Under the pieces are notes generated by a model. It had not been told where the DNA came from, searched no databases, and saw only the letters and a list, made by a program, of their open reading frames with translations. The position numbers and the translations under genes are program-made. This document shows positions 19,486 through 63,236 of a stretch of DNA of 64,000 nt, piece after piece (the first letter of the stretch is position 1; each line of letters opens with the position of its first letter). The stretch comes from a virus, in the IMG/VR virus record IMGVR_UViG_3300035698_017437, positions 1 through 64,000 of that record, one strand, 5' to 3'.

Positions 19486-19549
19486 TTATTATAAATAATA
19501 CTAACGATTGAAAAATATCAGTCAATTATAAATTACTAAGGAGTAAAGA

Positions 19550-20539: not shown

Positions 20540-20572
20540 ATAACTTAATAAACTCTAAAGGAGTAATAAAAT

Positions 20573-21919: not shown

Positions 21920-21951
21920 AATATAGTACAGAAGTATCGTTGTAGAATATT

Positions 21952-21990
21952 AGCTCCCATAGAGATTTATTTCTTTATGGGAGCTTTTTT
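21952..21990 (+). terminator. Intrinsic terminator after gp23
   Basis: AGCTCCCATAGAGA...TCTTTATGGGAGCT + T-tract. Confidence 0.85.
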
Positions 21991-22052
21991 AGGTTGACAA
22001 TAATGAGAATTTATGATATAGTTGTATAACCAATATAAAGAGAGGATTTATA

Positions 22053-23735
22053 ATGACAGAATATATTCACATAAAAAACAAACCCATATCTAAGGATCAC
22101 TTGATTTATCTTTGGGTAGAGATGGAAATGTCTTTAGATGGAATAGGAAGGTTATTAGGAGTGAGAGGTCCAACAATCAAGGATCATTTGAAGAAAAATG
22201 ATATTTATGATTTGAGAGATTTCAATAAAAAGGTAGTAGATATACCAAAACAGAAATCTCAAGAACAGGAAATATTTGAGAAATTATATAATATTGACGG
22301 ATTGAGTATGATGGAAATATCCAGAAAGTTGGGAATGTCTAGAAAAATGGTTAAGTATAGGTTATTAAATTATGATCTAATAGATTCCTCTATTGATGCT
22401 AGATCTAGCAGGAAAATAGAAATATCAAAAGCTGATTTAGATTTTCTCTGGAATGAAAAAAAGATGGACTTTTCACAAATATCATCATTGTTGGAAGTTG
22501 GATCGGCATTAATAAAAAAGAGACTTTTAGAGTATGATATAATTGATAAGGATTTCAATCCTAGAAATCGGAATAGAAAAGGTACAAAAGAAGTCCTCTT
22601 CCATTTGTGGAATAAAGGACATTCAATGAAAGAAATCTGTAAAGAGATTGGAATAGGCAGGGAACTATTAAAGTCTGAATTGAAAAAATATGATATAATT
22701 GATCAAGACTTTCAAGGAACATTTATTGATATTGGTACTAAAGATGATTTAACTTTCTTGTATATAGAAAAGGTATTATCGGTGAGAGAGATTTCCGTAA
22801 TGATGGAAGTAGCAAAGTCTACTGTTATCGGAAGACTAAAGGGATATGATCTATGGGACTTACGACCACATGATAAGGGTAGGTCCGAATCAGAGATAGA
22901 AGTATCTGATTTCATAAAGAGTATATACAAAGATAAAGTGTTGGATAATGATAGGAAAGCTATAAGTCCTTTGGAATTAGACATATATCTTCCAGAGAAA
23001 AATTTTGCTATTGAGTATAATAGATTATATTGGCATTCAGAACTTTATAAAGATAAGAATTATCATTTAGATAAAACTTTAGCATGTGAAAAGAAAAATA
23101 TTCAATTATTCCATATTTTTGAAGATGATTGGAGAGATAAATCTGAAGTAATAAAACGTAAATTGAAATATTTATTATGTGGACATAGTAAAAGAGTTTA
23201 TGGGAGAAAGTGTGTTTCTAGAAAGATAAATTCTAATGAAGCTTCAGAGTTTTACAATAAACATCATATTCAAGGAGGCAGGTCTTCTCTGTTCTCTGTT
23301 TCATATGGTCTTTATTATGAGAACGAATTAGTATCTGTACAATCATACAAAAGGATGAAAGATAAATGGGATTTATGTAGATTTGCTACATCATACTCTG
23401 TTATTGGAGGATTTTCTAAATTATTGAAAGTTTTTGTGAAGGAGTATAATCCAGAATTTATAACATCTTTTGGCGATCTTACTTTGATAAATAGGAAATC
23501 TAATGTATATATTTCTTGTGGATTTGAAGAGGAATATGTTACTTCACCAGATTATAAATATATAGTGAATAACGAAAGAAGACATAAATTCGGTTTTAGA
23601 AAAAATAAATTAGAAAAAATGTTTCCGATGTATGATATAAAAAAATATACAGAGAAACAAATTTGTTATGAAAATGGATTGTATAGAATTTATGATTGTG
23701 GTAAAATCAAATATAAACTAAACCTTGTGGAATAA
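22053..23735 (+). mobile_element. Hef-like free-standing endonuclease (HTH repeats + DUF559/VSR-like nuclease + conserved C-domain)
   Basis: About five helical repeats; ELDIY.PE..AIEYN.LYWHS..YH..K...L.HIFEDDW; C-terminal H.QG, L.RFA, GGFSKL, RIYDCG; own promoter TTGACA-17-TATAGT at 21994. Confidence 0.85.
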
Positions 23736-35497: not shown

Positions 35498-35919
35498 AAG
35501 AAAAAATGAAAGTATCAGAATGGTATGAAAATTTCGCTCTTGAGGTAGAGCTTGAGGAAGGAAACTTTCTCAAAATCAAAGAAACCCTAACAAGAATTGG
35601 AATAACATCAAAAAAAGATAAATCTATTTTTCAATCTTGTCATATTCTTCAGAAAAAGGGAAAATTTTATATTGTACATTTTCTTGAATTATTCGCTCTT
35701 GATGGAAAAGAAACGTCTATATCAAAAGATGATATTATAAGACGAGATTCTATTATTATTCTTCTTCAAAAATGGGGATTATTGAAAGTTATTGATGAAC
35801 CAAAACTTTCTGAAAAGTCTGTATTTGTTAGAGTGATTCATTTCAATGATAAAGAAAATTGGAATTTAGTTCCAAAGTATTCTATTGGATCTGATAATAA
35901 ACCAAGAGGAGAGAAATAA
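35494..35919 (+). CDS. regA: Translational repressor RegA
   Basis: FLKIKETLTRIGI, QSCHIL.K.G.FYIVHF.ELF.LDG. Confidence 0.96.
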   Translation: MKEKMKVSEWYENFALEVELEEGNFLKIKETLTRIGITSKKDKSIFQSCHILQKKGKFYIVHFLELFALDGKETSISKDDIIRRDSIIILLQKWGLLKVIDEPKLSEKSVFVRVIHFNDKENWNLVPKYSIGSDNKPRGEK

Positions 35920-36446
35920 TGAAATTGAAATGTTATAAAATAAATGAAGAAGCAAAACTTCCAACATATGGATCAACATATGCCGCTTGTTTTGATATTT
36001 CTGTTTGTTTACCTAAAGGTGGAATGCCAGTATTAGTTGATAAAAATAGAACAGCTTTAGTGAATGGTGAGGATTCTTCTAGATATATTGTTATTCATCC
36101 TGGAGAGGTTGCTCTAGTTCCTACAGGACTTATATTTGATATTCCAGAAGGATACCAAATGAAGATTTTACCTAGGTCAGGTCTAGCATGGAAAAATAGT
36201 ATTACAGTTTTGAATAGTCCAGGTACAATTGACGAAGATTATTATAATGAAACTTTCGTTCTTTTATATAATTCTTCAAGAAATTTACCTTTCAGAATTC
36301 AACATGGAGATAGAATTGCTCAAGGCGAAATAATGAAATGTAATATGATACAGTTTGAAGAGATATCTGAATTGGAATTGGGTATATCTAAAGAACTTCT
36401 AGAATCCTCTAGAGATGGTGGATTAGGTTCCACTGGAATGAAATAA
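35919..36446 (+). CDS. dut: Trimeric dUTPase
   Basis: A.FD, PRSGL, NSPGTID.DY, GDRIAQ, R.GGLGSTG. Confidence 0.93.
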   Translation: MKLKCYKINEEAKLPTYGSTYAACFDISVCLPKGGMPVLVDKNRTALVNGEDSSRYIVIHPGEVALVPTGLIFDIPEGYQMKILPRSGLAWKNSITVLNSPGTIDEDYYNETFVLLYNSSRNLPFRIQHGDRIAQGEIMKCNMIQFEEISELELGISKELLESSRDGGLGSTGMK

Positions 36447-36467: not shown

Positions 36468-36758
36468 ATGAAAATTGGTGAAATGTTAGAATGTATTATT
36501 GAAGGACTGAAATGCGCTAGATCCGGTTGGAACGGTAAAAATCAATTCGTTGTTTATATGTCTGCTCTAAATCTACCACCTTTCAATACCCAAGATACAA
36601 ATAGGAAGGTTAATGATAGGACTGCCAAGTGGATTGGAGAAGATAAACCCTTAAATTCTCAACCATATATTGCTTTATATAATACTCAGGGATTATGGCA
36701 ACCTGGTTGGGTTCCATCTATATCCGATCTCCTAGCTGAAGATTGGGAGGTTGTATAA
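36468..36758 (+). CDS. tad2: DUF2829 / Tad2-like signal-sponge protein
   Basis: AR.GWNGK..FV ... GW.PS..D.LAEDW motifs. Confidence 0.8.
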   Translation: MKIGEMLECIIEGLKCARSGWNGKNQFVVYMSALNLPPFNTQDTNRKVNDRTAKWIGEDKPLNSQPYIALYNTQGLWQPGWVPSISDLLAEDWEVV

Positions 36759-37114
36759 TGTTTAGAATGGAAGATATTGGAAGAATTTGCTATTTAGCAA
36801 ATAAGATGTATTGTGAATCTATAGGAGATAAATCCCAAACATCTTGGGCTTTGTGTGGACCAGAAATTCAAAAATCTGTTGTAAATGGTGTTAAATATAG
36901 ACTTGTAAATCCTCTTGCCACTCCAGAAGGAACTCATGAGAATTGGTACAAATACAAGAAAGATCATGGATGGGTATATGGAGAAGTGAAAGATGGTGAA
37001 AGGAAAACCCATCCTTGTATGTTACCATATGATGAATTGCCTATAGATCAAAAAATTAAAGATGATATTTATGTTTCTGTCTGCGATGCTATGATTCCAT
37101 TTCTTGAAAAATAA
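36758..37114 (+). CDS. RyR-domain protein
   Basis: HENW...K...GWVYG..KD...KTHPC.LPYDELP..QK.KD. Confidence 0.9.
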   Translation: MFRMEDIGRICYLANKMYCESIGDKSQTSWALCGPEIQKSVVNGVKYRLVNPLATPEGTHENWYKYKKDHGWVYGEVKDGERKTHPCMLPYDELPIDQKIKDDIYVSVCDAMIPFLEK

Positions 37115-37200: not shown

Positions 37201-39801
37201 ATGTCCAATTTCACATTCGTGGGTAAAAGGGGGAATTCCTTCCTTGTCAGAGAAGTATCAAAGTCTTGTCGCAAAACTCATAAAATAAAAAGCTCAAATT
37301 TATCTCTATATTTGCCATCAAAAGAGGAATCTGAATATAAATCTTTTGATGGGAAAAGAAATCTGGAGAAGGTTGAGTTTGATTCTATTATAGATATGAG
37401 AGAGTTCATAGAGGATAATGGAGGAATTTCAAATTATCCTTTATATGGACAATCAAATCCGGTGGCTCAATGTATAGAAAATCGTTTCGGTAAACAAACA
37501 TTTGATATAAATGATTATCTTATATATGTTATTGATATTGAAACTGGTAGAGATCCAGAAAGGGGATATGCTCCTTCTATGGAACCTTTCAATGAAATAA
37601 CTCTAATCCAACTTCATAATAGCAAGACAAATACATATATTGTTTTTGGTACTGAACCTAATTTCACTCCAAATAAAATGGAAGGAAAGAATATTGTTTA
37701 TCGTTCTTGTGAAGATGAAAGAGAAATGTTGTTGAAATTTGTTCAATATTGGATGGGAGATTATCCGGATATCATTACAGGATGGAATATAGATTCATAT
37801 GATATGACCTATATATCTAATCGTTTGTTGGTCGTGTTTGGAGAAGAAAAAGGAACGAGTCTACGAAAGAATCTTAGTCCATTCAATAATGTTTGGATGA
37901 GAGAAGTGAAAAATTCATTTGGACAAAAAGAAGAGAAATGGACATGGACAGGAATAGTTTGTCTTGATTATCTGGCTCTATATAAAAAGTTTTCTCAAAA
38001 CAGTAGAGATTCATATAAGTTGGATAATATTGCCAATCTTGAATTGGGAACAAAGAAAATTGATTATTCTGAAGTTGAAAATCTTGAAGTTTTGAGATTG
38101 ACAAATTATCCCAAGTTTGTAGAATATGGTATCATTGATTTAGATCTTATTCTTGACTTACAGAAAAAATTGAAATTTCTCAATATTGCTATATCTCTTT
38201 CTTATAAAGCTGGTATCAATTTGGAAGATTCTATGGGAACAGTAGTTCTATGGGAAACAATGTTTCATAATAGATTATCAAGAGATAAAAAATTTATACC
38301 AATTGAACGACCCAAAAGACCTCATGTACCATATATTGGAGCATATGTACAAGATGTTGTCCCTGGTAGATATGATTGGATATTGAGTGTAGATCTTGCT
38401 TCATTGTATCCTCATTGTCAGATGCAATCCAATATCTCTCCTGATAAATTGATTGAAAATCCTCACCAAGAGTTATTGGATTTTCGGGATCAATTGAATA
38501 GTCAACCTATAAATGATCCTATTCATGGAAAAGTCTTAGGTTCTATAGATATGTTGTTACATAAAAAGATGGATACTTCTATATTACGCAAGTATCAGGT
38601 ATCTTTGACACCTAATGGACAATTCTATAAAAAAGATGATATTGGCTTTATTCCTAAAATTCTTAAGGAAGTTTATGCTGAAAGAAAAGCCATAAAGATA
38701 GAAATGATCAAAAAGAAACAAGAGTTGGAAGATACAACAGATCCTATTTCAAAACATAAATTGGATTTTGAAATATCTGCTCTTGATGCTGAACAGATGG
38801 CATTGAAAATTATGATTAATAGCGCATATGGAGCATTAGGAACAAAATATTTCAGATTTTATGATCCAAGAAATGCTGAAGCGATTACTTCATTGGGTAG
38901 AGTAGCAATCCAATGGGTGGCAAGGGATATCAATAATTATATAAAAAGTATTGTTCCTGATATTACTACCGATTCTGTTGTATATACAGATACAGATTCA
39001 AATCTCATTTGTCTTTCTCCTTTAGTGGAGAAATTCTTCAAGGGGAAATCAAATGCTTTCATTAGGGATGCTTTAGTTTCTTTTGGTAAAGAAAAACTTC
39101 AACCTATTATGGATGAAAGTTACAAGAAGTTAGCCATATATCTCAACTCTTATGAACAAGCAATGATCATGAAAATGGAAGTTGTTTCAGATAAAAATAT
39201 CTTCCTCTCCAAAAAGAGATATATAATGTCAAAGTTGTGGGATGAAGGAGTGACTTTCACTGAACCTAAAATGAAAATTATGGGTATAGATGCTATCAAA
39301 TCATCTACACCACCTCTTTGTAGGAAATATTTGACAGATATTATCAAAATCATTTTACATGGAGATGAGGAATCTGTCCAAGATTTTGTAAAAGATTTCA
39401 AAGAGAAATTTTATTCTGCTGATATTTCAGAAATATCATTCCCTAGGTCAGTAAATAACATGGAAAAATATGAAGATTCTATGTTGATATGTAAGAAAGG
39501 AACTCCTATTGCTGTTAGAGGAGCTCTTGTGTATAATCACTTCCTCAATAAACTGAATATCACAGAAATTGAAACAATTAAAAGTAGGGATAAAGTTAAG
39601 TTTATTTATTTGAAAATTCCTAATCATTATAAACATAATGTGATTTCATATGTAAATTCTATACCGAAAGAATTCCCTCATGTTCCTATTGATTATGATA
39701 TCCAATTTTATAAATCCTTTTTGAAACCTGTGGAGGGTATTCTAAATCCTATCGGATGGGAACATGAAAAGACAAATACATTAGAATCATTTTTCAGTTG
39801 A
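37201..39801 (+). CDS. gp43: Family B DNA polymerase gp43
   Basis: DIET, GWN..YD exonuclease; DLASLYP, K...NS.YG, YTDTDS, KKRY; C-terminal clamp-binding LESFF. Confidence 0.98.
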   Translation: MSNFTFVGKRGNSFLVREVSKSCRKTHKIKSSNLSLYLPSKEESEYKSFDGKRNLEKVEFDSIIDMREFIEDNGGISNYPLYGQSNPVAQCIENRFGKQTFDINDYLIYVIDIETGRDPERGYAPSMEPFNEITLIQLHNSKTNTYIVFGTEPNFTPNKMEGKNIVYRSCEDEREMLLKFVQYWMGDYPDIITGWNIDSYDMTYISNRLLVVFGEEKGTSLRKNLSPFNNVWMREVKNSFGQKEEKWTWTGIVCLDYLALYKKFSQNSRDSYKLDNIANLELGTKKIDYSEVENLEVLRLTNYPKFVEYGIIDLDLILDLQKKLKFLNIAISLSYKAGINLEDSMGTVVLWETMFHNRLSRDKKFIPIERPKRPHVPYIGAYVQDVVPGRYDWILSVDLASLYPHCQMQSNISPDKLIENPHQELLDFRDQLNSQPINDPIHGKVLGSIDMLLHKKMDTSILRKYQVSLTPNGQFYKKDDIGFIPKILKEVYAERKAIKIEMIKKKQELEDTTDPISKHKLDFEISALDAEQMALKIMINSAYGALGTKYFRFYDPRNAEAITSLGRVAIQWVARDINNYIKSIVPDITTDSVVYTDTDSNLICLSPLVEKFFKGKSNAFIRDALVSFGKEKLQPIMDESYKKLAIYLNSYEQAMIMKMEVVSDKNIFLSKKRYIMSKLWDEGVTFTEPKMKIMGIDAIKSSTPPLCRKYLTDIIKIILHGDEESVQDFVKDFKEKFYSADISEISFPRSVNNMEKYEDSMLICKKGTPIAVRGALVYNHFLNKLNITEIETIKSRDKVKFIYLKIPNHYKHNVISYVNSIPKEFPHVPIDYDIQFYKSFLKPVEGILNPIGWEHEKTNTLESFFS

Positions 39802-40161: not shown

Positions 40162-41228
40162 GTAATTTTTTGAAAGGAATGTTGAAATCTACAGGAAATA
40201 TATATGGCGGAATAGCATCTGAAGGATTAGTTGCTGGAGATATCACAGGATATCTTGATACAGGATCGTATCGTCTAAATGCTCTTGTCTCTGGATCTGT
40301 GTTCAAAGGTTGGCCACGAGGTAAAATTAGTATCCTTGGAGCACCTTCAGGAACAGGAAAAACCTTTTTACTTTTATCAGCTATCAAAGAGTTTCTAAAT
40401 GCTGAACCTGATGGAGCTGTTATTCTTTTTGAATCTGAATCAGCTCTTACAAAAGATATGCTAGTTCAAAGAGAAATTGATATTGATAGAGTTTTGATTT
40501 TACCTATTGTAACTGTGGAGGATTTGAAATTTCAAGCAGTTTCTATTATAGATAGATATCAAGCAACTCCAGAAGATGAAAGAATTCCTATTCTCCTTGG
40601 TCTTGATTCAATAGGTATGTTATCAACAGAAAAGGAAATTGGTGATGCTTCTGATGGAAAGGCTACTTTAGATATGACCCGAGCAAAAATGCTCAAAGCA
40701 GTATTTCGTATCCTTACTTTGAAATTGGGTCTATGTGATATTCCTTTCTTAGCCACCAATCATACTTACCAGGAACTTTCCCTCTATCCTAAAACCATCC
40801 AAAGTGGAGGAACAGGATTAGTTTATGCTGGAAGTACAATAATGGCGTTTTCTAAGGCCCAAGAAAAAGAAGGAAAGGAAAAAGTTGGGGCGATAATCAC
40901 AGCAACTCTTCAGAAAGGTCGTCTAACAAAAGAAAACTCTAAAGGTAAATGTCTTATCAATTTTGAAAATGGTTTAGATCGTTATTTTGATTTGATTGAA
41001 CCAGCCGTGGAATCAGGAATTTGGCAGAAAGATGGTAAACGTTTTATAACTACTGTAAATGAGAAACCTGTTTGGGCAAAGACTATAGCTAAAGATCCTG
41101 AAACATATTTTACCAAAGAAGTATTAGAAGCTATTGATAAAGTTTTAGCGAGACAATACCTTTATGGAATAACTAAAACAGAAGATGAAAATTTTGATGA
41201 ATTAGATGGAGAAGAAATTGACCACTGA
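40158..41228 (+). CDS. uvsX: UvsX recombinase
   Basis: DTGSY.LNAL.SG, APSGTGKT, LDSIG.L, DMTRAK, TNHTY, SGG.G. Confidence 0.95.
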   Translation: MSNFLKGMLKSTGNIYGGIASEGLVAGDITGYLDTGSYRLNALVSGSVFKGWPRGKISILGAPSGTGKTFLLLSAIKEFLNAEPDGAVILFESESALTKDMLVQREIDIDRVLILPIVTVEDLKFQAVSIIDRYQATPEDERIPILLGLDSIGMLSTEKEIGDASDGKATLDMTRAKMLKAVFRILTLKLGLCDIPFLATNHTYQELSLYPKTIQSGGTGLVYAGSTIMAFSKAQEKEGKEKVGAIITATLQKGRLTKENSKGKCLINFENGLDRYFDLIEPAVESGIWQKDGKRFITTVNEKPVWAKTIAKDPETYFTKEVLEAIDKVLARQYLYGITKTEDENFDELDGEEIDH

Positions 41229-41874
41229 TAATGGAAGAATAGAAACTATTATCATAAATCAACTCATATTCAATCGGGAATATTTCTCCAAATGTGTACC
41301 TTTTATCTCAGAAGAGTATTTTGACCTCAGACCAGAAAAGATAATTGTCAAACATATTGAATCATATTTTCAGAAATATGATTCAAGGATTCCTGATCCT
41401 TCAGTTCTGAAAGTGATGTTAGAACAAGATACCACTATTGGAGAGAAAGAAATTGGAGAAATAAATGAATATGTTGATAATCATTGTTCCTCTACAGGAA
41501 AATATGATTATGACTGGTTATTGATAGAAAGTGAATCCTTTTGCCAAGAGAAAGCAGTTTATAATGGTATAGTTGATTCTATCAATATTATTGAAGGAAG
41601 AGACAAGAATAGGAATAAAGAGGGTATTCCTGAAATATTGAGCGATGCCCTTGGTGTTAATTTTGATGTGAATATTGGACATGATTATTTTGGTCATGCT
41701 AAAGAAAGATTTGAATCTTATAATAATGCTGAAGCCAAGTTTCCATGTGGTCTAGAAATGATTGATAAAATCACTCATGGCGGGTTTGAGGAGAAGACGA
41801 TAAATCTATTAATTGGGGGCCCTGGCTGTGTTTTTTTCAAGACTAAAATACATGTCAGGATCACTGGGAAATAA
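41206..41874 (+). CDS. gp41: Replicative helicase gp41 N-part + 15-aa split intein N-fragment (41827-41871)
   Basis: E.FCQ.KA.YN, IPEILSDAL.V.FD..IGHDY, D.IT.GG; Walker A start GGPG then CVFFKTKIHVRITGK stop. Confidence 0.92.
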   Translation: MEKKLTTDNGRIETIIINQLIFNREYFSKCVPFISEEYFDLRPEKIIVKHIESYFQKYDSRIPDPSVLKVMLEQDTTIGEKEIGEINEYVDNHCSSTGKYDYDWLLIESESFCQEKAVYNGIVDSINIIEGRDKNRNKEGIPEILSDALGVNFDVNIGHDYFGHAKERFESYNNAEAKFPCGLEMIDKITHGGFEEKTINLLIGGPGCVFFKTKIHVRITGK

Positions 41875-42112
41875 TATTTAGTGTATTTCCCTTGTTATCC
41901 ATAATCCAGATGATATGATCATAGTCAAGATCAATACAAAAATTGTGTTTTGCTATGTTCATATCGTAATGTAGTTTTAAGGTCCATTCAGATTTTATTT
42001 CTATCATTATCCGGTAGATGAAGATTGTACTTTTGAAGAATTCAAGGAGAGGATGAGTATAATGGCAATTGATTTGATAAAATTTGTTGATAAAAAGCTA
42101 TAGAGATAATAT

Positions 42113-43282
42113 ATGGAAAAAGATATAGAAATACATGAAGTAAAGGAATTGTTGGAACATGGATATAAAGTTGAGGTCTCTTCTCCTAACGGTTTTGTGG
42201 AGATTACAGATTTTATAGAAAAGGGATATTTTGAGGTATATCATCTAAACACTTTCACTAAAAAAATAGGATGTAATATAAATCACAAATGGTTGACTTC
42301 TGAGGGATTCAAGAAAACTTCGGAATTACTAGATGGACCATTTCTTGTTGCTGGAGAGGATGAAAAGTTTATTCCTGCCCATATAACAAAATCTGATAAA
42401 ATAGAAAGGATTGTTGACGTTACAGTTGACCATCCTTCTCATACATATTTCACTGATGGAATCGCAAGCCACAATTCCTGTAAAACTTTGACAATGTGTT
42501 CTATGGCTACTCATTATCTCCAACAGGGATATGATGTCCTTTATATCACCATGGAGATGGCTGAAACCAAAATTGCCTCTAGAATTGATGCCAACTTGTT
42601 GGATGTTGATATCAATCGTGTTACTGGTTTATCTGAACAAGATTTCATGGGAAGAATAAATTTAGTCAAGACGAAAGGTATGGGACAATTAGTTATCAAA
42701 GAATATCCTACTGGCTCTGCTCATTGTGGTCATTTTGATTCATTGATGAAGGAATTGAAGATAAAGAAGAATTTTGTTCCAAAGATTATTTTTGTTGATT
42801 ATTTGGGTATTTGTTCGTCTAAATTAGTATCTCCTACTGTTGGTATGTATTCATATGTAAAGAGTATTGCTGAAGAGTTGAGATCGTTCATGGGTAAACA
42901 TAATGCTGTTGGATTTTCTGTTGCTCAATTCAATAGAGGTGGAACAAATAATACCGATGCTGATTATAGTAATATTGCGGAGAGTACAGGAATCCAACAG
43001 ACGGCAGATTTCATTGCTGGTTTAATCCTTACTGAGGAGCTAGAAGAAAAAAAGGTCATTTTGGTGAAACAAATCAAGAATAGATATGGAGATGTTGCCC
43101 ATTATAAAAAATTCTTGGTTGGTCTTGATAAAACAAGGATGAGAGTATACGACACTGAACAAGATTGGGATGAAGATAATGATTCTGTGGATGATGAAGA
43201 TGATATTCCAGAATTTGACAAGGCAACTAAAGGTAGAACCTTAGAAAAAGATGGACCTATGATGGGTGGAATAAGTTTCTAA
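42113..43282 (+). CDS. gp41: Split intein C-fragment (121 aa, 42113-42475) + gp41 helicase C-part
   Basis: CNINH block B, IVDVTV.HP.H.YF.DGI.SHN|S; then KT, YITMEMAE, IKEYPT, FVDYL.IC, IAEELR, Q.NR, KNRYGD. Confidence 0.94.
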   Translation: MEKDIEIHEVKELLEHGYKVEVSSPNGFVEITDFIEKGYFEVYHLNTFTKKIGCNINHKWLTSEGFKKTSELLDGPFLVAGEDEKFIPAHITKSDKIERIVDVTVDHPSHTYFTDGIASHNSCKTLTMCSMATHYLQQGYDVLYITMEMAETKIASRIDANLLDVDINRVTGLSEQDFMGRINLVKTKGMGQLVIKEYPTGSAHCGHFDSLMKELKIKKNFVPKIIFVDYLGICSSKLVSPTVGMYSYVKSIAEELRSFMGKHNAVGFSVAQFNRGGTNNTDADYSNIAESTGIQQTADFIAGLILTEELEEKKVILVKQIKNRYGDVAHYKKFLVGLDKTRMRVYDTEQDWDEDNDSVDDEDDIPEFDKATKGRTLEKDGPMMGGISF

Positions 43283-43539
43283 CTTCCGTAAATATGAACC
43301 TGAGGATCTTTCACTCCTGTGATTGAGTCCTCAAGTTCATTCCTATGGATAAGCACCTCTCCTTTTCCTGTGGAAAATCTTCCTTCAATAATAATATCTC
43401 CTATATGAACCTTATCGTGACATGAGGAACATATTACGGCTATATTATTGGATGAGTTTGATCCGCCATATCTTTTGGATTGGATATGATGTTTATTTAT
43501 TACCTTGAATTTTTCTGAACAAATTTCACACAAAGACAT
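43279..43539 (-). CDS. Small HNH endonuclease
   Basis: CEIC, HHI....GG.N...N...IC..CH..VH. Confidence 0.85.
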   Translation of the reverse strand: MSLCEICSEKFKVINKHHIQSKRYGGSNSSNNIAVICSSCHDKVHIGDIIIEGRFSTGKGEVLIHRNELEDSITGVKDPQVHIYGS

Positions 43540-43557
43540 TTTATCTCTCTTTTAGTA

Positions 43558-43594
43558 TTGACTTCTCATTCTATATATGTTATAATTACTTATG
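43558..43594 (+). promoter_or_regulatory. Truncated PeSL-like promoter (copy 3), leaderless configuration
   Basis: TTGACTTCTCATTCTATATATGTTATAAT; ATG 5 nt after -10. Confidence 0.75.
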
Positions 43595-43726
43595 ACGAAA
43601 ACAAAAAACATAATCATTATTTCTATCTTAGTTATTTCAGCTATCGTTTGTAATGGAATGAGTAAAAAAGTTATGTATTATGTTGATGAATCAAAACCTA
43701 TTTACACAACATGGAGAACAATATGA
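43592..43726 (+). CDS. Small membrane/secreted peptide (44 aa), not in ORF track
   Basis: MTKTKNIIIISILVISAIVC...; stop overlaps next ATG (ATGA). Confidence 0.5.
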   Translation: MTKTKNIIIISILVISAIVCNGMSKKVMYYVDESKPIYTTWRTI

Positions 43727-43938
43727 GAATATCTGAGTTGATCAAAAATCTTGAGGTTTCTTTATCTTTACATGGAGATCTTGAATGTGTTATTATTCCA
43801 CAGAACACTTCAAGAGTTGTAGATGTCCAGATTGCCACGGAACAAGTAGCGGAAGAATTTATGTCTGAGGAAGATATTCAAATATTTGATGCTGAAGATT
43901 TAGATAAGTTTCTCACTATTGAAGGAGAAATAGTGTAA
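43723..43938 (+). CDS. Hypothetical protein
   Basis: MRISELIK.L....HGDL.. phage small-protein pattern; RBS GGAG. Confidence 0.65.
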   Translation: MRISELIKNLEVSLSLHGDLECVIIPQNTSRVVDVQIATEQVAEEFMSEEDIQIFDAEDLDKFLTIEGEIV

Positions 43939-43945
43939 ATAAGTG

Positions 43946-44023
43946 TTGACTTCTCATTCTATACATGTTATAATAGTGTATAGCAAATGAGAAATACCTA
44001 ATTCAAAATGGAGATTCAAAATG
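43946..44023 (+). promoter_or_regulatory. PeSL-like cassette copy 4
   Basis: Differs from copy 2 at a single base. Confidence 0.9.
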
Positions 44024-44209
44024 AGTAGATATAAAACGAAAAATAAGCATATAAGCCTTATTCGCCAAGGAGACACAATTTTACATAATGGAGAGGAAAG
44101 GACCGTATGTGATAGTGATATATTGATAAGTAGTTTTATGGGTATTTCTATATTTGGAGATTCCTATTCTATGGGAAGAAAGTTGGTAAAGGAAATAACA
44201 TACTTTTAA
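44021..44209 (+). CDS. Hypothetical early protein
   Basis: HIS.I..GDTI.H.G..RTV, F.G..IFGDSY..G.K.V small phage protein pattern. Confidence 0.7.
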   Translation: MSRYKTKNKHISLIRQGDTILHNGEERTVCDSDILISSFMGISIFGDSYSMGRKLVKEITYF

Positions 44210-44217
44210 AAAGGATA

Positions 44218-44385
44218 ATGATAATGAAAGACTTAGAAAAGAAAGTTAAACGATTGTTGATCAAATGGGGAAATTCTGAAGATTCTGTAAATAAAATGAT
44301 TTCTGATAATTATACTCAGGCTGTAAAAATGTATCCAGAGGCAAGAGCCGCAAAAATAGCTGAGGTTATTAGCTCCTTAAGATAA
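44218..44385 (+). CDS. Hypothetical 55-aa protein, not in ORF track
   Basis: MIMKDLEKKVKRLLIKWGNS...AKIAEVISSLR; RBS AAGGA. Confidence 0.6.
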   Translation: MIMKDLEKKVKRLLIKWGNSEDSVNKMISDNYTQAVKMYPEARAAKIAEVISSLR

Positions 44386-44534
44386 TTATTGATTTTCAGC
44401 AAGGTCAAGTACTGAAGTGAAGTCTATCCCATTAGAACTGATAATATAATGAGGATGAGATGAGACTATAACGGGTTATCAGATCTGTTGTCTTGAGTAA
44501 GTATCAACCCTTACACCTTGCTGAAAATCAATAA
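44386..44534 (+). ncRNA. Candidate structured RNA / MITE with 20-bp perfect terminal inverted repeats
   Basis: TTATTGATTTTCAGCAAGGT / ACCTTGCTGAAAATCAATAA enclosing 109 nt with further helices. Confidence 0.55.
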
Positions 44535-44548
44535 ATATAAAATAAGTG

Positions 44549-44636
44549 TTGACTTCTCATTCTATACATGATATAATAGTGTATACAGAATGAAAAACAC
44601 CTAATTCAATATGGAGATTTTGGAATTTTTGATATG
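44549..44636 (+). promoter_or_regulatory. PeSL-like cassette copy 5 (drives purZ-like gene)
   Basis: TTGACTTCTCATTCTATACATGATATAATAGTGTATACAGAATGAAAA. Confidence 0.85.
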
Positions 44637-45626
44637 AAAATTGAAAAAGGAAAACTAAATATCATTATTGATGGTCAGTTTGGTAGCACCGGCAAGGGAG
44701 TTCTTGCGAGTTATATTGGATCAAAGAACTTTATTGATTTAGCTATAACAAACAGTAGTCCTAATGCTGGACATACATTTTATATAGATGGAAAGAAATG
44801 TGTTGTCAAGCATTTACCTGTTTCTGGAATAATCAATAAATGTAGCGTTATTTATCTTTGTGCTGGAGCTATTATTCATCCGAAAACTCTTTTAGATGAA
44901 ATCAAAAAATTCAATATAGATAAAGATAGAATTTTCATTCATCCTAGAGCCGCAATAATAACTCAAAATGATAAGATTTCGGAGGAGAATTCCAGAGGTA
45001 TAATGCAAGAAATCTCTTCAACCCAAAATGGAGTTGGTAGAGCATTATCTAGGAAAATAAATAGGACTGCTGATCTTGCTGAGGATATTCCAGAGTTATC
45101 CCATTTCATAAGAGATGTTGATGTTGAAGCACTTTTGGATGTAGGATGTAAAGCTCTAATGGAAGTCCCTCAGGGAATGGATTTGAGTATCAATTCAGGA
45201 TTATCCTATCCTTATTGTACTTCTAGAGAAATTTCTGTTAGTTCTTCATTATCTGATGTTGGAATACATCCTTCATATCTCGGTAAAGTATGTGTGAGTA
45301 TTAGAACCTTTCCCATTAGAGTTGGAAATCTTGAGGGAGGTAATTCGGGGCCATTTTATCCAGATTCAAAAGAAATTACTTGGGATAATCTTGGTGTAAA
45401 GCCAGAATATACAACAAATACAGATAGAATAAGAAGAGTCTCCACATTTAGTATGATACAATACAGAAAAATGTTGAAGAAATTCAAACCTGATTGTATA
45501 TTTCTAAATTTCTGTAATTATCTTCATCCAGAAGAATTGATGGATTTATTAGAACATCTTCCCGCAGTGACCCATTTAGGATTCGGTAGGGCCAAAGAAG
45601 ATATATTAGTTCGTAATGGAATTTGA
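44634..45626 (+). CDS. purZ: PurZ-type adenylosuccinate synthetase paralog (dSMP synthetase)
   Basis: GQFGSTGKG (Ser for the PurA catalytic Asp), NAGHT, YPYCTSR, RTFPIRVGN, T.R.RRV..FS, LNFCNY instead of PurA TKLD. Confidence 0.8.
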   Translation: MKIEKGKLNIIIDGQFGSTGKGVLASYIGSKNFIDLAITNSSPNAGHTFYIDGKKCVVKHLPVSGIINKCSVIYLCAGAIIHPKTLLDEIKKFNIDKDRIFIHPRAAIITQNDKISEENSRGIMQEISSTQNGVGRALSRKINRTADLAEDIPELSHFIRDVDVEALLDVGCKALMEVPQGMDLSINSGLSYPYCTSREISVSSSLSDVGIHPSYLGKVCVSIRTFPIRVGNLEGGNSGPFYPDSKEITWDNLGVKPEYTTNTDRIRRVSTFSMIQYRKMLKKFKPDCIFLNFCNYLHPEELMDLLEHLPAVTHLGFGRAKEDILVRNGI

Positions 45627-46000: not shown

Positions 46001-46345
46001 ATGACAAATGGGAGAATGATAATGAGTAACTGCTTGAGAATACAATTCTATGATAATGATTTTTGTTTGATTGCCAAAGGAGCAATGGATGCTATTTCTT
46101 GGACTTCACATAAAGAACTGAAAGATTCTGCTAATGATGAATCTATTCTCCTAATGTTTATAAAGCTGATGAATGATCTTTCTGATTGGAGAAAGTCCTT
46201 ACAAAAGTATGGAATGCCATTCAAAAGAGATCCTAAATATTTTGATGATTGTGATTTGGATAGATTAGAAGAGATTCCCTCAGAAAACAATAATAGTGAA
46301 TCGGTTATTTACGTTTATAAAACAGGAAAGGTATTTGTATTATGA
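46001..46345 (+). CDS. Hypothetical protein
   Basis: Coupled to downstream gene (ATGA); start probably a few codons in. Confidence 0.6.
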   Translation: MTNGRMIMSNCLRIQFYDNDFCLIAKGAMDAISWTSHKELKDSANDESILLMFIKLMNDLSDWRKSLQKYGMPFKRDPKYFDDCDLDRLEEIPSENNNSESVIYVYKTGKVFVL

Positions 46346-47292
46346 GTAACAATAGAAAGATCCAAGGAATTTTTCATTTTGATTGCGACGGGGCAGTTTC
46401 GGAGATAATTATGAAACGGTTCATTCCCAACATTTATTCTTATAGTTGTGGATATTCTAAGATAGATGCTTGGATCAAGAAATTGAAAAAGAATGATAAA
46501 GTTATTGTTGCTGATATTTCTCTTTCTCCAGATCAAGTGGAATCTATTAGAGAAAAAACGGATCAATGGTTCATTATTGATCATCATCAAGATACAGAGG
46601 AAATTCAAAATAATTATCCAGATCATGTTCTTTATGCTTCTGATAAATGTGGTGCTGAACTTTGTGTTGATTTTTGTGAAGAGCGATTTCCAGAAACTTT
46701 TGATGAATTGTATCGGAAAAACGGAAAAATGAGAGTTCTAGTTATGTTGACTGGTATTTATGATCTATGGAAAACAGATCATGAATTGTTTCCGAAAGCT
46801 TACAATCTCAATTATCTTTATTGGGATTTAGTCCATTGGAATTTTGTAAAACGTTTTGCTAATGGTTGGGATGGTTACTCTATATCTGAAGTGGAAACAA
46901 TCAAGAAAAAGCAGGAAGAAAAGGAAATTCTTTGGAATGAGGCAGAATTTGTTGATATTGATGATAAAACCATCGTTTGTTTGGGTAGTCCTGAAATCAC
47001 AAATGATCTAACCTTGAGACTTCCAGAAAAGGAATTATTTTTTGCTATTGTCCACCAACATGATGAATTATCTCTTAGAGTCCGGTATTCTGGAGAGACA
47101 GGTAATGTAGGAGAGGTTCTAGATGAACTAGAACACATGGAAACAGGAATAGGCGCTTATACTCATAGAGCTGGAGGCCATCCTAAGGCTGGAGGAGCAT
47201 CATTCTATCCTGAAGCTGATTTAGATTATATTTTTGAGGTCTGTGAGTATATTTTCGAGTATATGAAAAATTCCTCTGATGTTCCATTTTAG
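46342..47292 (+). CDS. DHH/DHHA1 phosphoesterase
   Basis: H.DCDG, VADIS, IIDHH, YDLW, GGHPKAGG. Confidence 0.88.
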   Translation: MSNNRKIQGIFHFDCDGAVSEIIMKRFIPNIYSYSCGYSKIDAWIKKLKKNDKVIVADISLSPDQVESIREKTDQWFIIDHHQDTEEIQNNYPDHVLYASDKCGAELCVDFCEERFPETFDELYRKNGKMRVLVMLTGIYDLWKTDHELFPKAYNLNYLYWDLVHWNFVKRFANGWDGYSISEVETIKKKQEEKEILWNEAEFVDIDDKTIVCLGSPEITNDLTLRLPEKELFFAIVHQHDELSLRVRYSGETGNVGEVLDELEHMETGIGAYTHRAGGHPKAGGASFYPEADLDYIFEVCEYIFEYMKNSSDVPF

Positions 47293-61791: not shown

Positions 61792-61871
61792 TTGACTTCT
61801 TATTCTATACATGTTATAATAGTGTATACCGTAAATGAGAAATATCTATTCAATATGAGGTTAGAATAATG
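61792..61871 (+). promoter_or_regulatory. PeSL-like cassette copy 9
   Basis: Same core; 3' end AATATGAGGTTAGAAT shared with copy 1. Confidence 0.88.
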
Positions 61872-63236
61872 TTTGAAGTTCCAAATAAAGAAAGAGGAAT
61901 CATTGAATGTCTTGAATCTAACGGATATGAGACATATTTGGTGGGAGGAGCTGTAAGGGATTATTTCCTAGGACAGACTCCTCATGATTTTGATATTTCC
62001 ACCAATGCTCGTCCTGAGCAGATTATTGAAATTTTCAAAAAAGAATCCTTTATCACAAATATTGATCTTGTTGGAGAATCTTTTGGAGTTGTTCTTATTG
62101 ATGGAATTGAAGTAGCGACATTCAGAGGGGATCATTATTCAGGTACGGGTTCTCAAAAAGATGTTGAAATCACTTATTGTGATACAATTGAGGAAGACCT
62201 TTCCAGAAGAGATTTCACTGTCAACTCAATGGCTATTGATCTGTCTGGTGATTTGATTGATCCTTTCGGAGGCCAAAGAGATTGTGAAGATATGATTCTT
62301 CGTTTTGTTGGTTCTGCTGATAAGAGAATCAAAGAAGATTCAAACCGAATTCTTCGGGCCTTTCGGTTTTCAGCTAAAGGTTTTAAACTTCAGCTTGATC
62401 TAAAGATCGCAATTGTAAGGAATCTTTCTTCTGTAAAGAATATTGCTCCTGAAAGAATTCGTCTTGAACTCTTAAAAACGATGGAATATGAGAAACCTTC
62501 CATCTTCTTTGAAAATGCTTATAAACTTGGAGTTCTTGAGTATATATTTCCTGAATTATGTCTTTCATGGGAACATGATGGAGGAAATCATCATCCTGAA
62601 TCTGTTTGGGAACATGTTATGATTGCTGGAGATTCGGCTTCTCCTAAGTTTCCATTACAACGCCTTGCCGCTTATCTTCATGACATTGCCAAACCTGAAT
62701 GTTTCAAAAGAAATGATGATAGGACCTTTTCCCGTCACGATGTTGTGGGATATAAGATTCTCCAGAAAAATCTTAAATCACTGAAATTCTCTAATGAAGA
62801 AATTGAAAAAGTTTCTGGTTTGTCTAGAATTCATATGAGACATGGGTTTTATGGTGATGATAAAGGAAGTCATAAAGCTTTTCGTAAAACTCTGAGGGCT
62901 CTTTCTGAATTCGGTGTTTCTTGGAGAGAATTTATCCGATTGAGAATTGCTGATACTAAAGGAAACCTTGGAGTTGAAGATCTTACTTTTACTCAATTGA
63001 GAACCATTATCACTCCTTTTGTAAATGGATTATATGCTGATACTCCATTTACTGCTCATGCTCTGGCATTATCTGGTGGAGATATCAAGGATCTTTTTCA
63101 TTTGGAAGGCAAAGAAATTGGAGAGCTTCAGAAACATTTACTCCATTTGGTTGTTGAGGATGGAGTGGAGAATGCTAGGAACGTTTTGATGGAAGTATCT
63201 TTGGATTTCATCAAGGAATCTAAAGTTCGAGAATAA
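61869..63236 (+). CDS. cca: CCA-adding tRNA nucleotidyltransferase with HD domain
   Basis: LVGGAVRD, DFDI, DL.RRDFT.N, ED..RILRA.RF, ERI..EL, H...LHDIAKP. Confidence 0.9.
   Translation: MFEVPNKERGIIECLESNGYETYLVGGAVRDYFLGQTPHDFDISTNARPEQIIEIFKKESFITNIDLVGESFGVVLIDGIEVATFRGDHYSGTGSQKDVEITYCDTIEEDLSRRDFTVNSMAIDLSGDLIDPFGGQRDCEDMILRFVGSADKRIKEDSNRILRAFRFSAKGFKLQLDLKIAIVRNLSSVKNIAPERIRLELLKTMEYEKPSIFFENAYKLGVLEYIFPELCLSWEHDGGNHHPESVWEHVMIAGDSASPKFPLQRLAAYLHDIAKPECFKRNDDRTFSRHDVVGYKILQKNLKSLKFSNEEIEKVSGLSRIHMRHGFYGDDKGSHKAFRKTLRALSEFGVSWREFIRLRIADTKGNLGVEDLTFTQLRTIITPFVNGLYADTPFTAHALALSGGDIKDLFHLEGKEIGELQKHLLHLVVEDGVENARNVLMEVSLDFIKESKVRE

What the first reader, a model, noticed from the sequence alone, without database searches (positions are those of the whole stretch)
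44549..45626. PurZ-type enzyme in a T4-like myovirus: possible 2-aminoadenine (Z) genome copied by a family-B replisome
Seen: PurA fold with GSTGKG in place of GDEGKG and NFCN in place of the GTP-binding TKLD, under its own strong early cassette promoter. Known: these substitutions mark PurZ, which makes the dZMP precursor from dGMP; the characterised Z-phages I know of are sipho/podoviruses with DatZ/MazZ helpers. Inference: no clear DatZ or MazZ lies in this window, so helpers are elsewhere, are replaced (candidates: DHH phosphoesterase 46342, dUTPase 35919), or substitution is partial. A Z-containing, very AT-rich T4-type genome that still uses TATAAATA/TATAAT promoters would be new biology.
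Basis: partly seen in the sequence, partly recalled or inferred. Interest (0 to 1): 0.88.

Follow-up and report, generated by a model that had tools for sequence, protein, structure and literature searches.

The report
Orphan PurZ gene in T4-like phage
An uncultured marine T4-like phage carries an intact, early-promoter-driven copy of PurZ, the enzyme small phages use to replace adenine with 2-aminoadenine (Z) in DNA. None of the helper enzymes that make that replacement complete were found, so Z in its DNA is plausible, probably partial, and untested.

Summary
ORF 44634-45626 (330 aa) has the PurA fold, GSTGKG instead of GDEGKG, and FLNFCNYL where PurA has TKLD. It matches 11 of 12 checked PurZ signature positions. 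Its best solved-structure matches are phiVC8 and S-2L PurZ. In my trees it sits inside the ATP-type PurZ clade, apart from PurZ0 and Asp-type PurA. It has its own copy of a conserved early promoter, found 15 times on the + strand against 0.1 expected.

The contig is a marine T4-like myovirus (gp17, 18, 20, 23, 41, 43, 46, RegA, UvsW), 142 kb and about 78% complete.

I found no DatZ, MazZ/DUF550, DUF5664, DmtZ, DpoZ, PurB or guanylate kinase in it. The proposed stand-ins are not supported. The dUTPase is an ordinary Dut, and the DHH protein has no link to PurZ elsewhere.

Orphan status looks typical of big carriers. Among IMG/VR PurZ contigs, 0 of 7 large ones had a DatZ-type HD_3 domain, against 23 of 29 smaller ones. 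Three of the large ones are at least 91% complete.

The enzyme most likely makes the dZ precursor, and the DNA is probably mixed A/Z. No chemistry was tested. This scan has flagged orphan PurZ genes in other large phages before. I found no paper linking PurZ to T4-like or family-B-polymerase phages.

The parts
44549..44577 (+). Sigma-70-type early promoter (TTGACT, 17 nt, TG-n-TATAAT) dedicated to purZ. It is one copy of a conserved ~45-nt promoter cassette.
   Evidence: One search gives 11 of 12 matches plus TG. One search shows near-identical cassettes at 43558, 43946 and 44549, and 15 such sites on the + strand against 0.1 expected.
44634..45626 (+). purZ-like gene, 330 aa. It belongs to the PurZ clade of N6-succino-2-amino-2'-deoxyadenylate synthases, with GSTGKG as the P-loop and NFCNY as the ATP-base motif.
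37201..39801 (+). T4 gp43-type family-B DNA polymerase (866 aa). It is the only replicative polymerase found, so it would have to copy any Z-containing DNA.
   Evidence: PF00136; phrog_262, E 3.9e-263. No phmmer hit to phiVC8 DpoZ in the record.
35919..36446 (+). dUTPase (175 aa) between regA and gene 43. I evaluated it as a possible DutZ-like dATP/dGTP hydrolase. It looks like an ordinary Dut, so its membership in the system is not shown.
   Evidence: NF001862 scores 118 bits against a cut-off of 103; nearest relatives are dUTPases of phiM12-type rhizobiophages; only weak similarity to actinophage dUTPases (1.2e-5 and 4e-3).
46342..47292 (+). DHH/DHHA1 phosphoesterase (316 aa), three ORFs downstream of purZ. 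I evaluated it as a possible helper and found no evidence that links it to PurZ.
   Evidence: PF01368, phrog_4771; only weak RecJ-like matches; no homologue beside purZ in 12 other loci; no tblastn hit in the phage collection.

Best explanation
The ORF encodes a working PurZ. Early in infection it is transcribed by host sigma-70 RNA polymerase from its own promoter. It condenses dGMP with aspartate, using ATP, to give N6-succino-2-amino-dAMP. Host adenylosuccinate lyase, guanylate kinase and nucleoside-diphosphate kinase then carry this on to dZTP. The phage's T4-type family-B replisome inserts Z opposite T. I found no dATP-destroying enzyme, so dZTP has to compete with dATP. The DNA is therefore most likely a mixed A/Z polymer, not a fully substituted one.

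Shown: gene identity, signature residues, clade, fold, promoter, T4-like context and the absence of every known helper family.

Inferred: substrate and product, use of host enzymes, incorporation by PolB, and the degree of substitution.
For: Residues: 11 of 12 checked PurZ signature positions are kept. In phiVC8 numbering these are F12, S14, T15, P233, Y244, W252, G256, T262, N294, F295, N297 and Y298; they map to query F16, S18, T19, P227, Y242, W250, G254, T260, N292, F293, N295 and Y296. The exception is P144, which is T145 here. PurZ0 differs at T15E, Y244N/S, F295M and Y298Q. The roles of these residues come from bioRxiv 10.1101/2025.10.22.683976.

Phylogeny: all Ser-type sequences form a clade (support 0.834) that is sister to archaeal Asp-type short PurA. 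The query lies in a 133-member clade (0.996) with Ochrobactrum phage OH PurZ, which has DpoZ, MazZ and DatZ-like neighbours. That clade is sister to phiVC8, S-2L, SH-Ab 15497 and PMBT28 PurZ. PurZ0 is basal.

Fold: the AlphaFold2 model has pLDDT 88.6. Top Foldseek hits are phiVC8 DgsS (TM 0.88) and S-2L PurZ (0.85).

Conservation: the P-loop Ser is present in 263 of 264 aligned relatives. PurZ is 57-63% identical between phages whose other shared genes are only 25-45% identical. This argues for a selected, mobile function.

Expression: the gene has a dedicated early promoter.

Polymerases: most DNA polymerases do not discriminate A from Z, and an incomplete Z cluster gives lower substitution (PMC8342488).
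Against: - NCBIfam's PurZ model is the best hit but scores 215.5 bits, below its cut-off of 300. That is only 24 bits above the archaeal PurA model. Characterised PurZ and PurZ0 proteins score 325-421.
- Clade-specific changes lie near the substrate sites: EVPQGMD for EGAQGFS, TTNTD for TTVTK, a 4-residue insert in the RVG...SG loop, and one extra residue before YPYCTSRE.
- No known helper was found.
- The genome is 32.7% G+C, so full substitution would need a very large dZTP supply. Z-associated contigs in the literature are G+C-richer.
- Sigma factors are reported to be sensitive to A-to-Z changes, yet this phage relies on many TATAAT promoters.
- In the metaGPA preprint, 3 of 17 PF00709 proteins from restriction-sensitive contigs did not fall in the PurA clade. 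Carrying a PurZ-like gene may therefore not guarantee Z-DNA.
Confidence: 0.5

Rival explanations
1. The genome is fully Z-substituted. The phage replaces all A with Z, as S-2L and phiVC8 do. It removes dATP with an enzyme unrelated to DatZ, MazZ, DutZ or DUF5664, or with one encoded in the roughly 22% of the genome that is missing.
For: Every cultured PurZ phage tested so far is reported as fully substituted (PMC13128860; PMC12884076). Helper sets have been replaced independently several times. CheckV puts the record at 78% complete. Many small ORFs around purZ have no assignable function.
Against: No helper was found in 142 kb by Pfam models or by phmmer with helper proteins from six Z-phages. 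In known Z-phages the helpers sit next to purZ; here they do not. Large carriers that are 91-100% complete also lack HD_3. No gene is conserved beside purZ across large carriers.
Confidence: 0.15
2. This is a PurZ-fold enzyme with another job. It acts on a guanine nucleotide, but the product does not end up in virion DNA. Possible roles include pool manipulation, host takeover, counter-defence, or a ribonucleotide or otherwise modified substrate.
For: The sub-cut-off NCBIfam score and the clade-specific loop changes. The systematic loss of the whole helper set in large phages. The preprint's exceptions among restriction-sensitive contigs. One relative pairs PurZ with 7-deazaguanine genes. A related Ser-type lineage is common in bacterial chromosomes.
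Against: Residues for the 2-amino pocket, for aspartate and for the ATP base are all retained. The query is nested among PurZ proteins of phages with full Z clusters. dZTP, once made, is accepted by most polymerases, so excluding it from DNA would need an extra mechanism.
Confidence: 0.27
3. It is an ordinary PurA used as an auxiliary metabolic gene. The protein makes adenylosuccinate from IMP and GTP to boost AMP supply.
For: It belongs to PF00709, and it is fairly close to the archaeal short PurA model (191 bits).
Against: The catalytic Asp13 equivalent is Ser, and the GTP-specific (T/S)KxD motif is NFCN. The protein lies outside both PurA clades. In PurA-clade sequences Asp13 is 99% conserved (PMC12884076).
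Confidence: 0.03

Closest known systems
PurZ (DgsS) of Vibrio phage phiVC8 (PDB 6FM1/6FKO/6TNH) and PurZ of cyanophage S-2L (PDB 7ODX)
   Same: Same fold (TM 0.85-0.88). Same GSTGKG P-loop, same FLNFCNYL / NF(C/A)(N/Q)Y ATP motif and same 2-amino pocket residues. Both belong to the ATP-type PurZ clade.
   Different: Only 35-36% identical. Those phages are ~40-45 kb with PolA or PrimPol, and they have DatZ (S-2L also MazZ) close to purZ. Here the host genome is a 142-kb+ T4-like PolB phage with no helper. The query also has a 4-residue loop insert and altered Asp-loop residues.
PurZ of Ochrobactrum phage vB_OspP_OH (closest cultured-phage homologue)
   Same: 41.7% identity, the best among 50,697 phage records. 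It lies in the same 133-member subclade. It too falls below the NCBIfam PurZ cut-off (241 bits).
   Different: OH is a 41-kb podovirus. Its purZ is flanked by PolA, a MazG-type pyrophosphohydrolase and a DatZ-like '5'-nucleotidase'.
Orphan PurZ genes on large uncultured viral contigs (IMG/VR and metagenomes, 67-512 kb)
   Same: 50-63% identity. The genes are solitary and sit among small early-type ORFs. No DatZ-type HD_3 domain was found. Most of these contigs are AT-rich.
   Different: Most are not T4-like. Three use PolA, and none has a gp23 homologue of this phage. Only one other contig (67 kb, 26% G+C) has a T4-type PolB, at about 30% identity.
PurZ0 of actinophages (Wayne, Ghobes, Archimedes and Cholula type; PDB 7VF6)
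   Same: Ser in the P-loop and the same overall fold.
   Different: PurZ0 has GSEAKG, and M/Q instead of F/Y in the nucleotide-base motif. It is basal in the tree and always comes with DutZ. The query shows the PurZ states, not the PurZ0 states.
Archaeal short adenylosuccinate synthetase (P. horikoshii PurA, PDB 5K7X/2D7U; NCBIfam NF003295)
   Same: Similar length, and the fold matches at TM 0.87. It is the sister group of all Ser-type enzymes.
   Different: It keeps GDEGKG and a GTP-type T-G-(I/L)-D-K-L-D motif. The query scores 191 bits against a cut-off of 368.

Membership tests
PurZ (ATP-type succino-amino-deoxyadenylate synthase) | Adenylosuccinate-synthetase fold | tested here: met
   PF00709, E 5.8e-28. 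The AF2 model has pLDDT 88.6 and matches PurZ structures at TM 0.85-0.88.
PurZ (ATP-type succino-amino-deoxyadenylate synthase) | Catalytic Asp13 of PurA replaced by Ser (GSTGKG), plus the 2-amino pocket residues F12 and T262 (phiVC8 numbering) | tested here: met
   Query S18, F16 and T260. Residue roles are from bioRxiv 10.1101/2025.10.22.683976.
PurZ (ATP-type succino-amino-deoxyadenylate synthase) | ATP-base motif N-F-x-N-Y (F295, Y298) in place of the GTP motif (T/S)KxD | tested here: met
   Query N292-F293-C294-N295-Y296 aligns with E. coli TKLD.
PurZ (ATP-type succino-amino-deoxyadenylate synthase) | Placement inside the PurZ clade, apart from PurZ0 and PurA | tested here: met
   FastTree LG+G trees of 190 and 202 sequences. 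The query is in a clade with support 0.996 together with OH PurZ, sister to phiVC8, S-2L, SH-Ab and PMBT28. PurZ0 is basal and the Asp-type PurAs are outside.
PurZ (ATP-type succino-amino-deoxyadenylate synthase) | Score above the curated cut-off of NCBIfam NF038379 | tested here: not met
   215.5 bits against a cut-off of 300. It is the best-scoring model. Characterised PurZ proteins score 350-421, PurZ0 325-365, and OH PurZ, which has a full Z cluster, only 241.
PurZ (ATP-type succino-amino-deoxyadenylate synthase) | dGMP + Asp + ATP activity | not testable with these tools
   This needs a purified-enzyme assay.
Z-genome cluster (PurZ + DatZ + MazZ/DUF550, often DpoZ) | DatZ: an HD_3/YfbR-like dATP triphosphohydrolase | tested here: not met
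   No PF13023 match in the 142-kb record. No phmmer hit to four DatZ proteins. The two HD-domain proteins present are a CCA-adding enzyme and a SpoT-like HD_4 protein.
Z-genome cluster (PurZ + DatZ + MazZ/DUF550, often DpoZ) | MazZ (MazG-type) or DUF550/DUF5664 dGTP/dATP pyrophosphohydrolase | tested here: not met
   No match to PF03819 or PF04447. No phmmer hit to S-2L MazZ, OH MazZ or SH-Ab DUF5664-DUF550.
Z-genome cluster (PurZ + DatZ + MazZ/DUF550, often DpoZ) | DpoZ, a Z-selective family-A polymerase | tested here: not met
   No phmmer hit to phiVC8 DpoZ. The polymerase present is T4 gp43-type PolB.
Z-genome cluster (PurZ + DatZ + MazZ/DUF550, often DpoZ) | 2-aminoadenine present in virion DNA | not testable with these tools
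PurZ0 system (PurZ0 + DutZ +/- DmtZ) | PurZ0 residue states (GSE-KG; M and Q in the base motif) with a linked DutZ/DmtZ | tested here: not met
   The query has the PurZ states. No NDT/DmtZ was found. The dUTPase passes the ordinary Dut equivalog model, and its nearest relatives are phiM12-type rhizobiophage dUTPases.
Canonical PurA | GDEGKG with the catalytic Asp, and the GTP motif (T/S)KxD | tested here: not met
   Ser and NFCN instead. The query scores 126 bits on TIGR00184 against a cut-off of 395.
T4-like (Tevenvirinae-type) myovirus | Core genes gp17, gp18, gp20, gp23, gp41, gp43, gp46, UvsW and RegA | tested here: met
   PHROG and Pfam hits. The major capsid protein is about 52% identical to those of cyanomyoviruses, Pelagibacter phage Mosig and Methylophilales phage Melnitz.

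The most novel reading that the evidence does not exclude
Large AT-rich phages, including this T4-like one, may keep a solitary PurZ not to erase adenine but to top up the 'A' pool. Surplus dGMP would be turned into dZTP, an A-surrogate that pairs with T. This would be the purine counterpart of the dCMP-to-dTMP shunt. It would give a mixed A/Z genome copied by an ordinary family-B replisome and transcribed from TATAAT and T4-late promoters. That would explain three observations: no dATPase is kept, most large carriers are 26-39% G+C, and in the query's sister contig purZ overlaps thyX.
Probability: 0.2. Interest if true: 0.85.

Novelty: new variant of a known kind. Interest (0 to 1): 0.6.

Why it matters
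Z-DNA biology has been built on small sipho- and podoviruses that carry a compact PurZ-DatZ-MazZ(-DpoZ) cluster and replace adenine completely.

A PurZ-clade gene on a T4-like backbone with a family-B replisome raises several open questions:
- Does the Z base reach the largest and most abundant marine phage group?
- Do natural mixed A/Z genomes exist?
- How would AT-rich promoters, origins and T4-type late transcription tolerate a third hydrogen bond and a minor-groove amino group?

The pattern is wider than this one contig. Solitary PurZ genes sit on several large, mostly AT-rich viral contigs, including near-complete ones. The question is therefore general. It can be tested by enzyme assay, by nucleoside mass spectrometry, or by kinetic Z-calling on metagenomic HiFi reads.

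If the answer is 'no Z in DNA', homology-based counts of 'Z-genome viruses' are too high.

Tried and rejected
- DatZ, MazZ, DpoZ, DUF5664-DUF550, DmtZ-DutZ and neighbouring ORFs from phiVC8, S-2L, SH-Ab 15497, Ochrobactrum OH, Cholula and Archimedes were searched with phmmer (--max) against all stop-to-stop ORFs of the 142-kb record. Only PurZ and a weak dUTPase match came back.
- Pfam searches of the record found nothing for HD_3, MazG, DUF550, NDT, NUDIX, Lyase_1 (PurB), guanylate kinase or dCMP deaminase.
- The two HD hits are a CCA-adding tRNA nucleotidyltransferase and a SpoT-like HD_4 protein. I tested HD_4 as a possible DatZ substitute. It occurs in this genome and in 2 of 7 other large carriers, once beside purZ, and in 0 of 29 smaller ones. 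That is too thin to build on, and an alarmone hydrolase is the more natural reading. I keep it only as a lead.
- dUTPase as a DutZ-like helper: rejected as unsupported.
- DHH phosphoesterase as a helper: rejected as unsupported.
- A search for any gene conserved beside purZ across 12 carrier loci found only a YqeY-like protein next to purZ in two contigs, and a dUTPase about 5 kb away in the same two. Nothing was general.
- Megablast of the locus against phage records gave no match.
- Literature searches for PurZ together with myovirus, T4-like, family B or Myoviridae found no report of such a phage.
Full report
**What is there.** Window 44634-45626 (+) is a 330-aa ORF. It matches Pfam Adenylsucc_synt (5.8e-28) and PHROG 1211, '2-aminooxy adenylosuccinate synthetase' (3.3e-57). 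By sequence, its best solved relatives are phiVC8 PurZ/DgsS (6FM1, 6FKO, 6TNH; 1e-53) and S-2L PurZ (7ODX; 1e-45). These come ahead of Pyrococcus PurA (7.5e-36), PurZ0 (7VF6; 1e-27) and bacterial PurAs (1e-19 or weaker). GSTGKG is at residues 17-22. FLNFCNYL is at 290-297 and is letter-for-letter the phiVC8 sequence. In a 202-sequence alignment, NFCN falls on E. coli TKLD and on archaeal TG(I/L)D.

**Residue-level test.** A 2025 preprint that enriched Z-DNA from aquatic viromes lists the positions that separate PurZ from PurA, in phiVC8 numbering: F12, S14, T262, F295, Y298, W252, Y244, S273, P144, I34, P233 and G256 (bioRxiv 10.1101/2025.10.22.683976). The query keeps F, S, T, F, Y, W, Y, P and G at the corresponding positions, and has T where phiVC8 has S273, as S-2L and PMBT28 do. 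Only P144 differs (T145). At the four positions where PurZ0 departs from PurZ (T15E, Y244N/S, F295M, Y298Q), the query has the PurZ state. Among 264 aligned relatives, 263 have the P-loop Ser.

**Phylogeny and fold.** I built two FastTree (LG+gamma) trees.
- The first had 190 sequences: the query, five phage PurZ, two PurZ0, metagenomic representatives, GTDB hits, four bacterial PurAs and one Asp-type enzyme from a 735-kb phage.
- The second added 12 archaeal Asp-type short PurAs.
- In the second tree, all Ser-type proteins form one clade (0.834), sister to the archaeal short PurAs (0.987). PurZ0 is basal.
- The query sits in a 133-member clade (0.996) that also holds Ochrobactrum phage OH PurZ. 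That clade is sister to the group with phiVC8, S-2L, SH-Ab 15497 and PMBT28.
- An AlphaFold2 model (pLDDT 88.6, pTM 0.88) superposes best on phiVC8 DgsS (TM 0.88) and S-2L PurZ (0.85). Pyrococcus PurA is almost as close (0.87) and PurZ0 scores 0.82. The fold therefore agrees with PurZ but does not discriminate.

**Caveat on membership.** NCBIfam's PurZ model (NF038379) is the top hit, but at 215.5 bits it is under the 300-bit cut-off and only 24 bits above the archaeal PurA model. For calibration, characterised PurZ proteins score 350-421 and PurZ0 325-365. OH PurZ, which sits in a textbook Z cluster, scores 241, and two clade mates of the query score 218-238. This lineage is therefore outside the model's seed diversity, not contradicted by it. 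The clade also has its own changes near the substrate sites: EVPQGMD for EGAQGFS, TTNTD for TTVTK, a 4-residue insert after RVG, and one extra residue before YPYCTSRE.

**Context.** The record is an IMG/VR viral contig of 141,960 bp. It is linear, about 78% complete by CheckV, and 32.7% G+C. The window encodes:
- large terminase, tail sheath, portal and major head protein;
- UvsW-type helicase, gp46-like SbcC, and CobT/CobS-type proteins;
- RegA, a dUTPase, a gp43-type PolB (phrog_262, 3.9e-263) and a DnaB/gp41-type helicase.

The capsid protein is about 52% identical to those of cyanomyoviruses, Pelagibacter phage Mosig and Methylophilales phage Melnitz. This is a distant marine T4-like myovirus.

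**Promoter.** purZ lies in a stretch of small ORFs downstream of gene 41. It follows a TTGACT-17-TG-TATAAT promoter at 44549-44577. That promoter is one of three nearly identical ~45-nt cassettes within 1 kb. It is also one of 15 + strand sites in the window with at least 11 of 12 matches plus TG, against 0.1 expected. Early, host-polymerase-driven expression is what one would expect of a nucleotide-pool enzyme.

**Helpers.** None was found.
- phmmer with DatZ (four phages), MazZ (two), DpoZ, DUF5664-DUF550, DmtZ-DutZ and neighbouring ORFs found only PurZ and a weak dUTPase match across all ORFs of the record.
- Pfam HD_3, MazG, DUF550, NDT and NUDIX gave nothing.
- Downstream enzymes that some phages carry are absent too: PurB, guanylate kinase and dCMP deaminase. 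ThyX is present at 68.7 kb.
- The two HD-domain proteins are a CCA-adding enzyme and a SpoT-like HD_4 protein.
The dUTPase passes the curated Dut equivalog model, and its nearest phage relatives are the dUTPases of phiM12-type T4-like rhizobiophages. The DHH/DHHA1 protein has intact-looking motifs but no homologue beside purZ elsewhere, and no hit in the phage collection.

**Is the orphan state an artefact of an incomplete contig?** Probably not.
- The family is large: 1,722 50%-identity clusters at E <= 1e-10, and more than 1,400 proteins in the 90% collection.
- The nearest relatives (50-63% identity) often sit on very long contigs of 111-512 kb.
- Across 36 IMG/VR PurZ contigs of at least 30 kb, a DatZ-type HD_3 domain was found in 23 of 29 contigs of 30-91 kb. 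It was found in 0 of 7 large contigs carrying the query's nearest PurZ relatives (67-287 kb). Three of those seven are rated 91%, 93% and 100% complete.
- By my hand-computed hypergeometric calculation, drawing seven contigs with none positive has a chance of about 2e-4. Two of the seven are near-duplicates, so the contigs are not fully independent.
- Within the same PurZ subclade (about 50% identity), three small phages do carry HD_3.
- The large carriers are diverse. Three have PolA, one has a T4-type PolB about 30% identical to this one, and none has this phage's capsid protein.
- PurZ is far better conserved between these phages (57-63%) than any other shared gene (25-45%). This points to a mobile, selected cassette.
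- Six of nine large orphan-PurZ loci are 26-39% G+C, whereas the small cluster-bearing phages are 42-63%.

**Mechanism.** By homology, the enzyme should make succino-2-amino-dAMP from dGMP, aspartate and ATP. Host PurB and kinases would finish dZTP; that route is established for S-2L and phiVC8 and I state it from general knowledge of those papers. Most polymerases accept dZTP. In E. coli, incomplete Z clusters still give Z in DNA, but less of it, and the losses of datZ and mazZ are synergistic (PMC8342488). The most likely outcome here is therefore partial substitution. Full substitution would need an unrecognised dATP-removing activity. A third possibility is that this divergent lineage does something else with a guanine nucleotide. 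Two neighbourhoods are suggestive but not decisive. In the query's sister contig, purZ overlaps thyX. In another relative, purZ sits beside queD, queE and folE, the 7-deazaguanine genes.

**Novelty.** The Z-phage literature I could search describes sipho- and podoviruses, 'at least seven' groups of NCBI Z-phages, and more than 2,000 viruses predicted by PurZ homology. It never mentions T4-like, family-B-polymerase or jumbo carriers. No cultured phage in the 50,697-record collection has a PurZ more than 41.7% identical to this one, and every PurZ-bearing record I listed except one 735-kb uncultured phage is under 70 kb. This scan has flagged solitary PurZ genes in other large phages at least eight times. 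Those are unchecked AI notes, but they match what I measured in IMG/VR. I class this as a new variant of a known kind: a genuine PurZ-clade gene in an unexpected chassis and without its usual partners, with its chemical consequence untested.

Noticed in passing
window 44380-44545: The ORF-free stretch between the upstream small ORF and the purZ promoter folds into a long hairpin closed by a ~20-bp perfect stem (-53.2 kcal/mol, z = -7.3 against shuffles). Followed by the early promoter, it resembles the promoter-early stem-loop units that flank mobile cassettes in T4-type phages (that comparison is from memory).
   Followed up: partly
window 43530-44600: Three nearly identical ~45-nt promoter cassettes (AGTrTTGACTTCTCATTCTATAyATGwTATAAT...) start at 43558, 43946 and 44549. 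Across the window, 15 + strand sites have at least 11 of 12 matches plus TG, against 0.1 expected.
   Followed up: yes
window 41206-43282: The gp41/DnaB-type helicase appears to be in two ORFs. The second ORF's helicase domain starts only at residue ~123.
   Followed up: no
window 43279-43539 (-): A small minus-strand ORF (86 aa) with CxxC...HH...CxxCH spacing, like an HNH endonuclease, lies between gene 41 and the purZ cassette region.
   Followed up: no
window 61869-63236; G000 103209-103811: The phage encodes a CCA-adding tRNA nucleotidyltransferase with an HD domain, and a 201-aa SpoT-like HD_4 hydrolase. HD_4 homologues occur in 2 of 7 other large orphan-PurZ contigs, once directly upstream of purZ (L115 8309-9019), and in 0 of 29 smaller PurZ contigs.
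   Followed up: partly
L198 10001-12026: On the contig carrying the query's closest PurZ (63% identity, 28% G+C), purZ overlaps a downstream thyX by a few bases. A CCA-adding enzyme lies 7 kb upstream.
   Followed up: partly
L199 10001-20876: A 60%-identical PurZ sits about 6-10 kb from queD (PTPS), two radical-SAM genes and GTP cyclohydrolase I. This phage may modify both G (7-deazaguanine) and A.
   Followed up: no
L020 / G004 (Micavibrio MAG, 1-Mb contig); L024 / G005: Ser-type PurZ-like genes (47-48% identical to the query) occur in MAGs that also encode a canonical PurA. In G004 both genes lie on the same 1-Mb contig. They may be prophages or cellular copies. A separate Ser-type lineage is widespread in Acidobacteriota, Myxococcota and other chromosomes.
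   Followed up: partly
G011 (IMG/VR contig of L115) 19069-23397: The T4-type PolB of this 26% G+C PurZ-bearing contig has three in-frame TGA codons in its C-terminal part. Recoding (TGA read as an amino acid), a split gene or sequencing errors are all possible.
   Followed up: no
window 36743-37114; L007 11489-12334: A RyR-domain protein lies between the dUTPase and gene 43. It has a 48%-identical homologue directly downstream of purZ in a 33-kb DatZ-bearing phage contig.
   Followed up: no
window 22053-23735: A 560-aa HNH-type homing endonuclease gene lies immediately after the major capsid gene.
   Followed up: no
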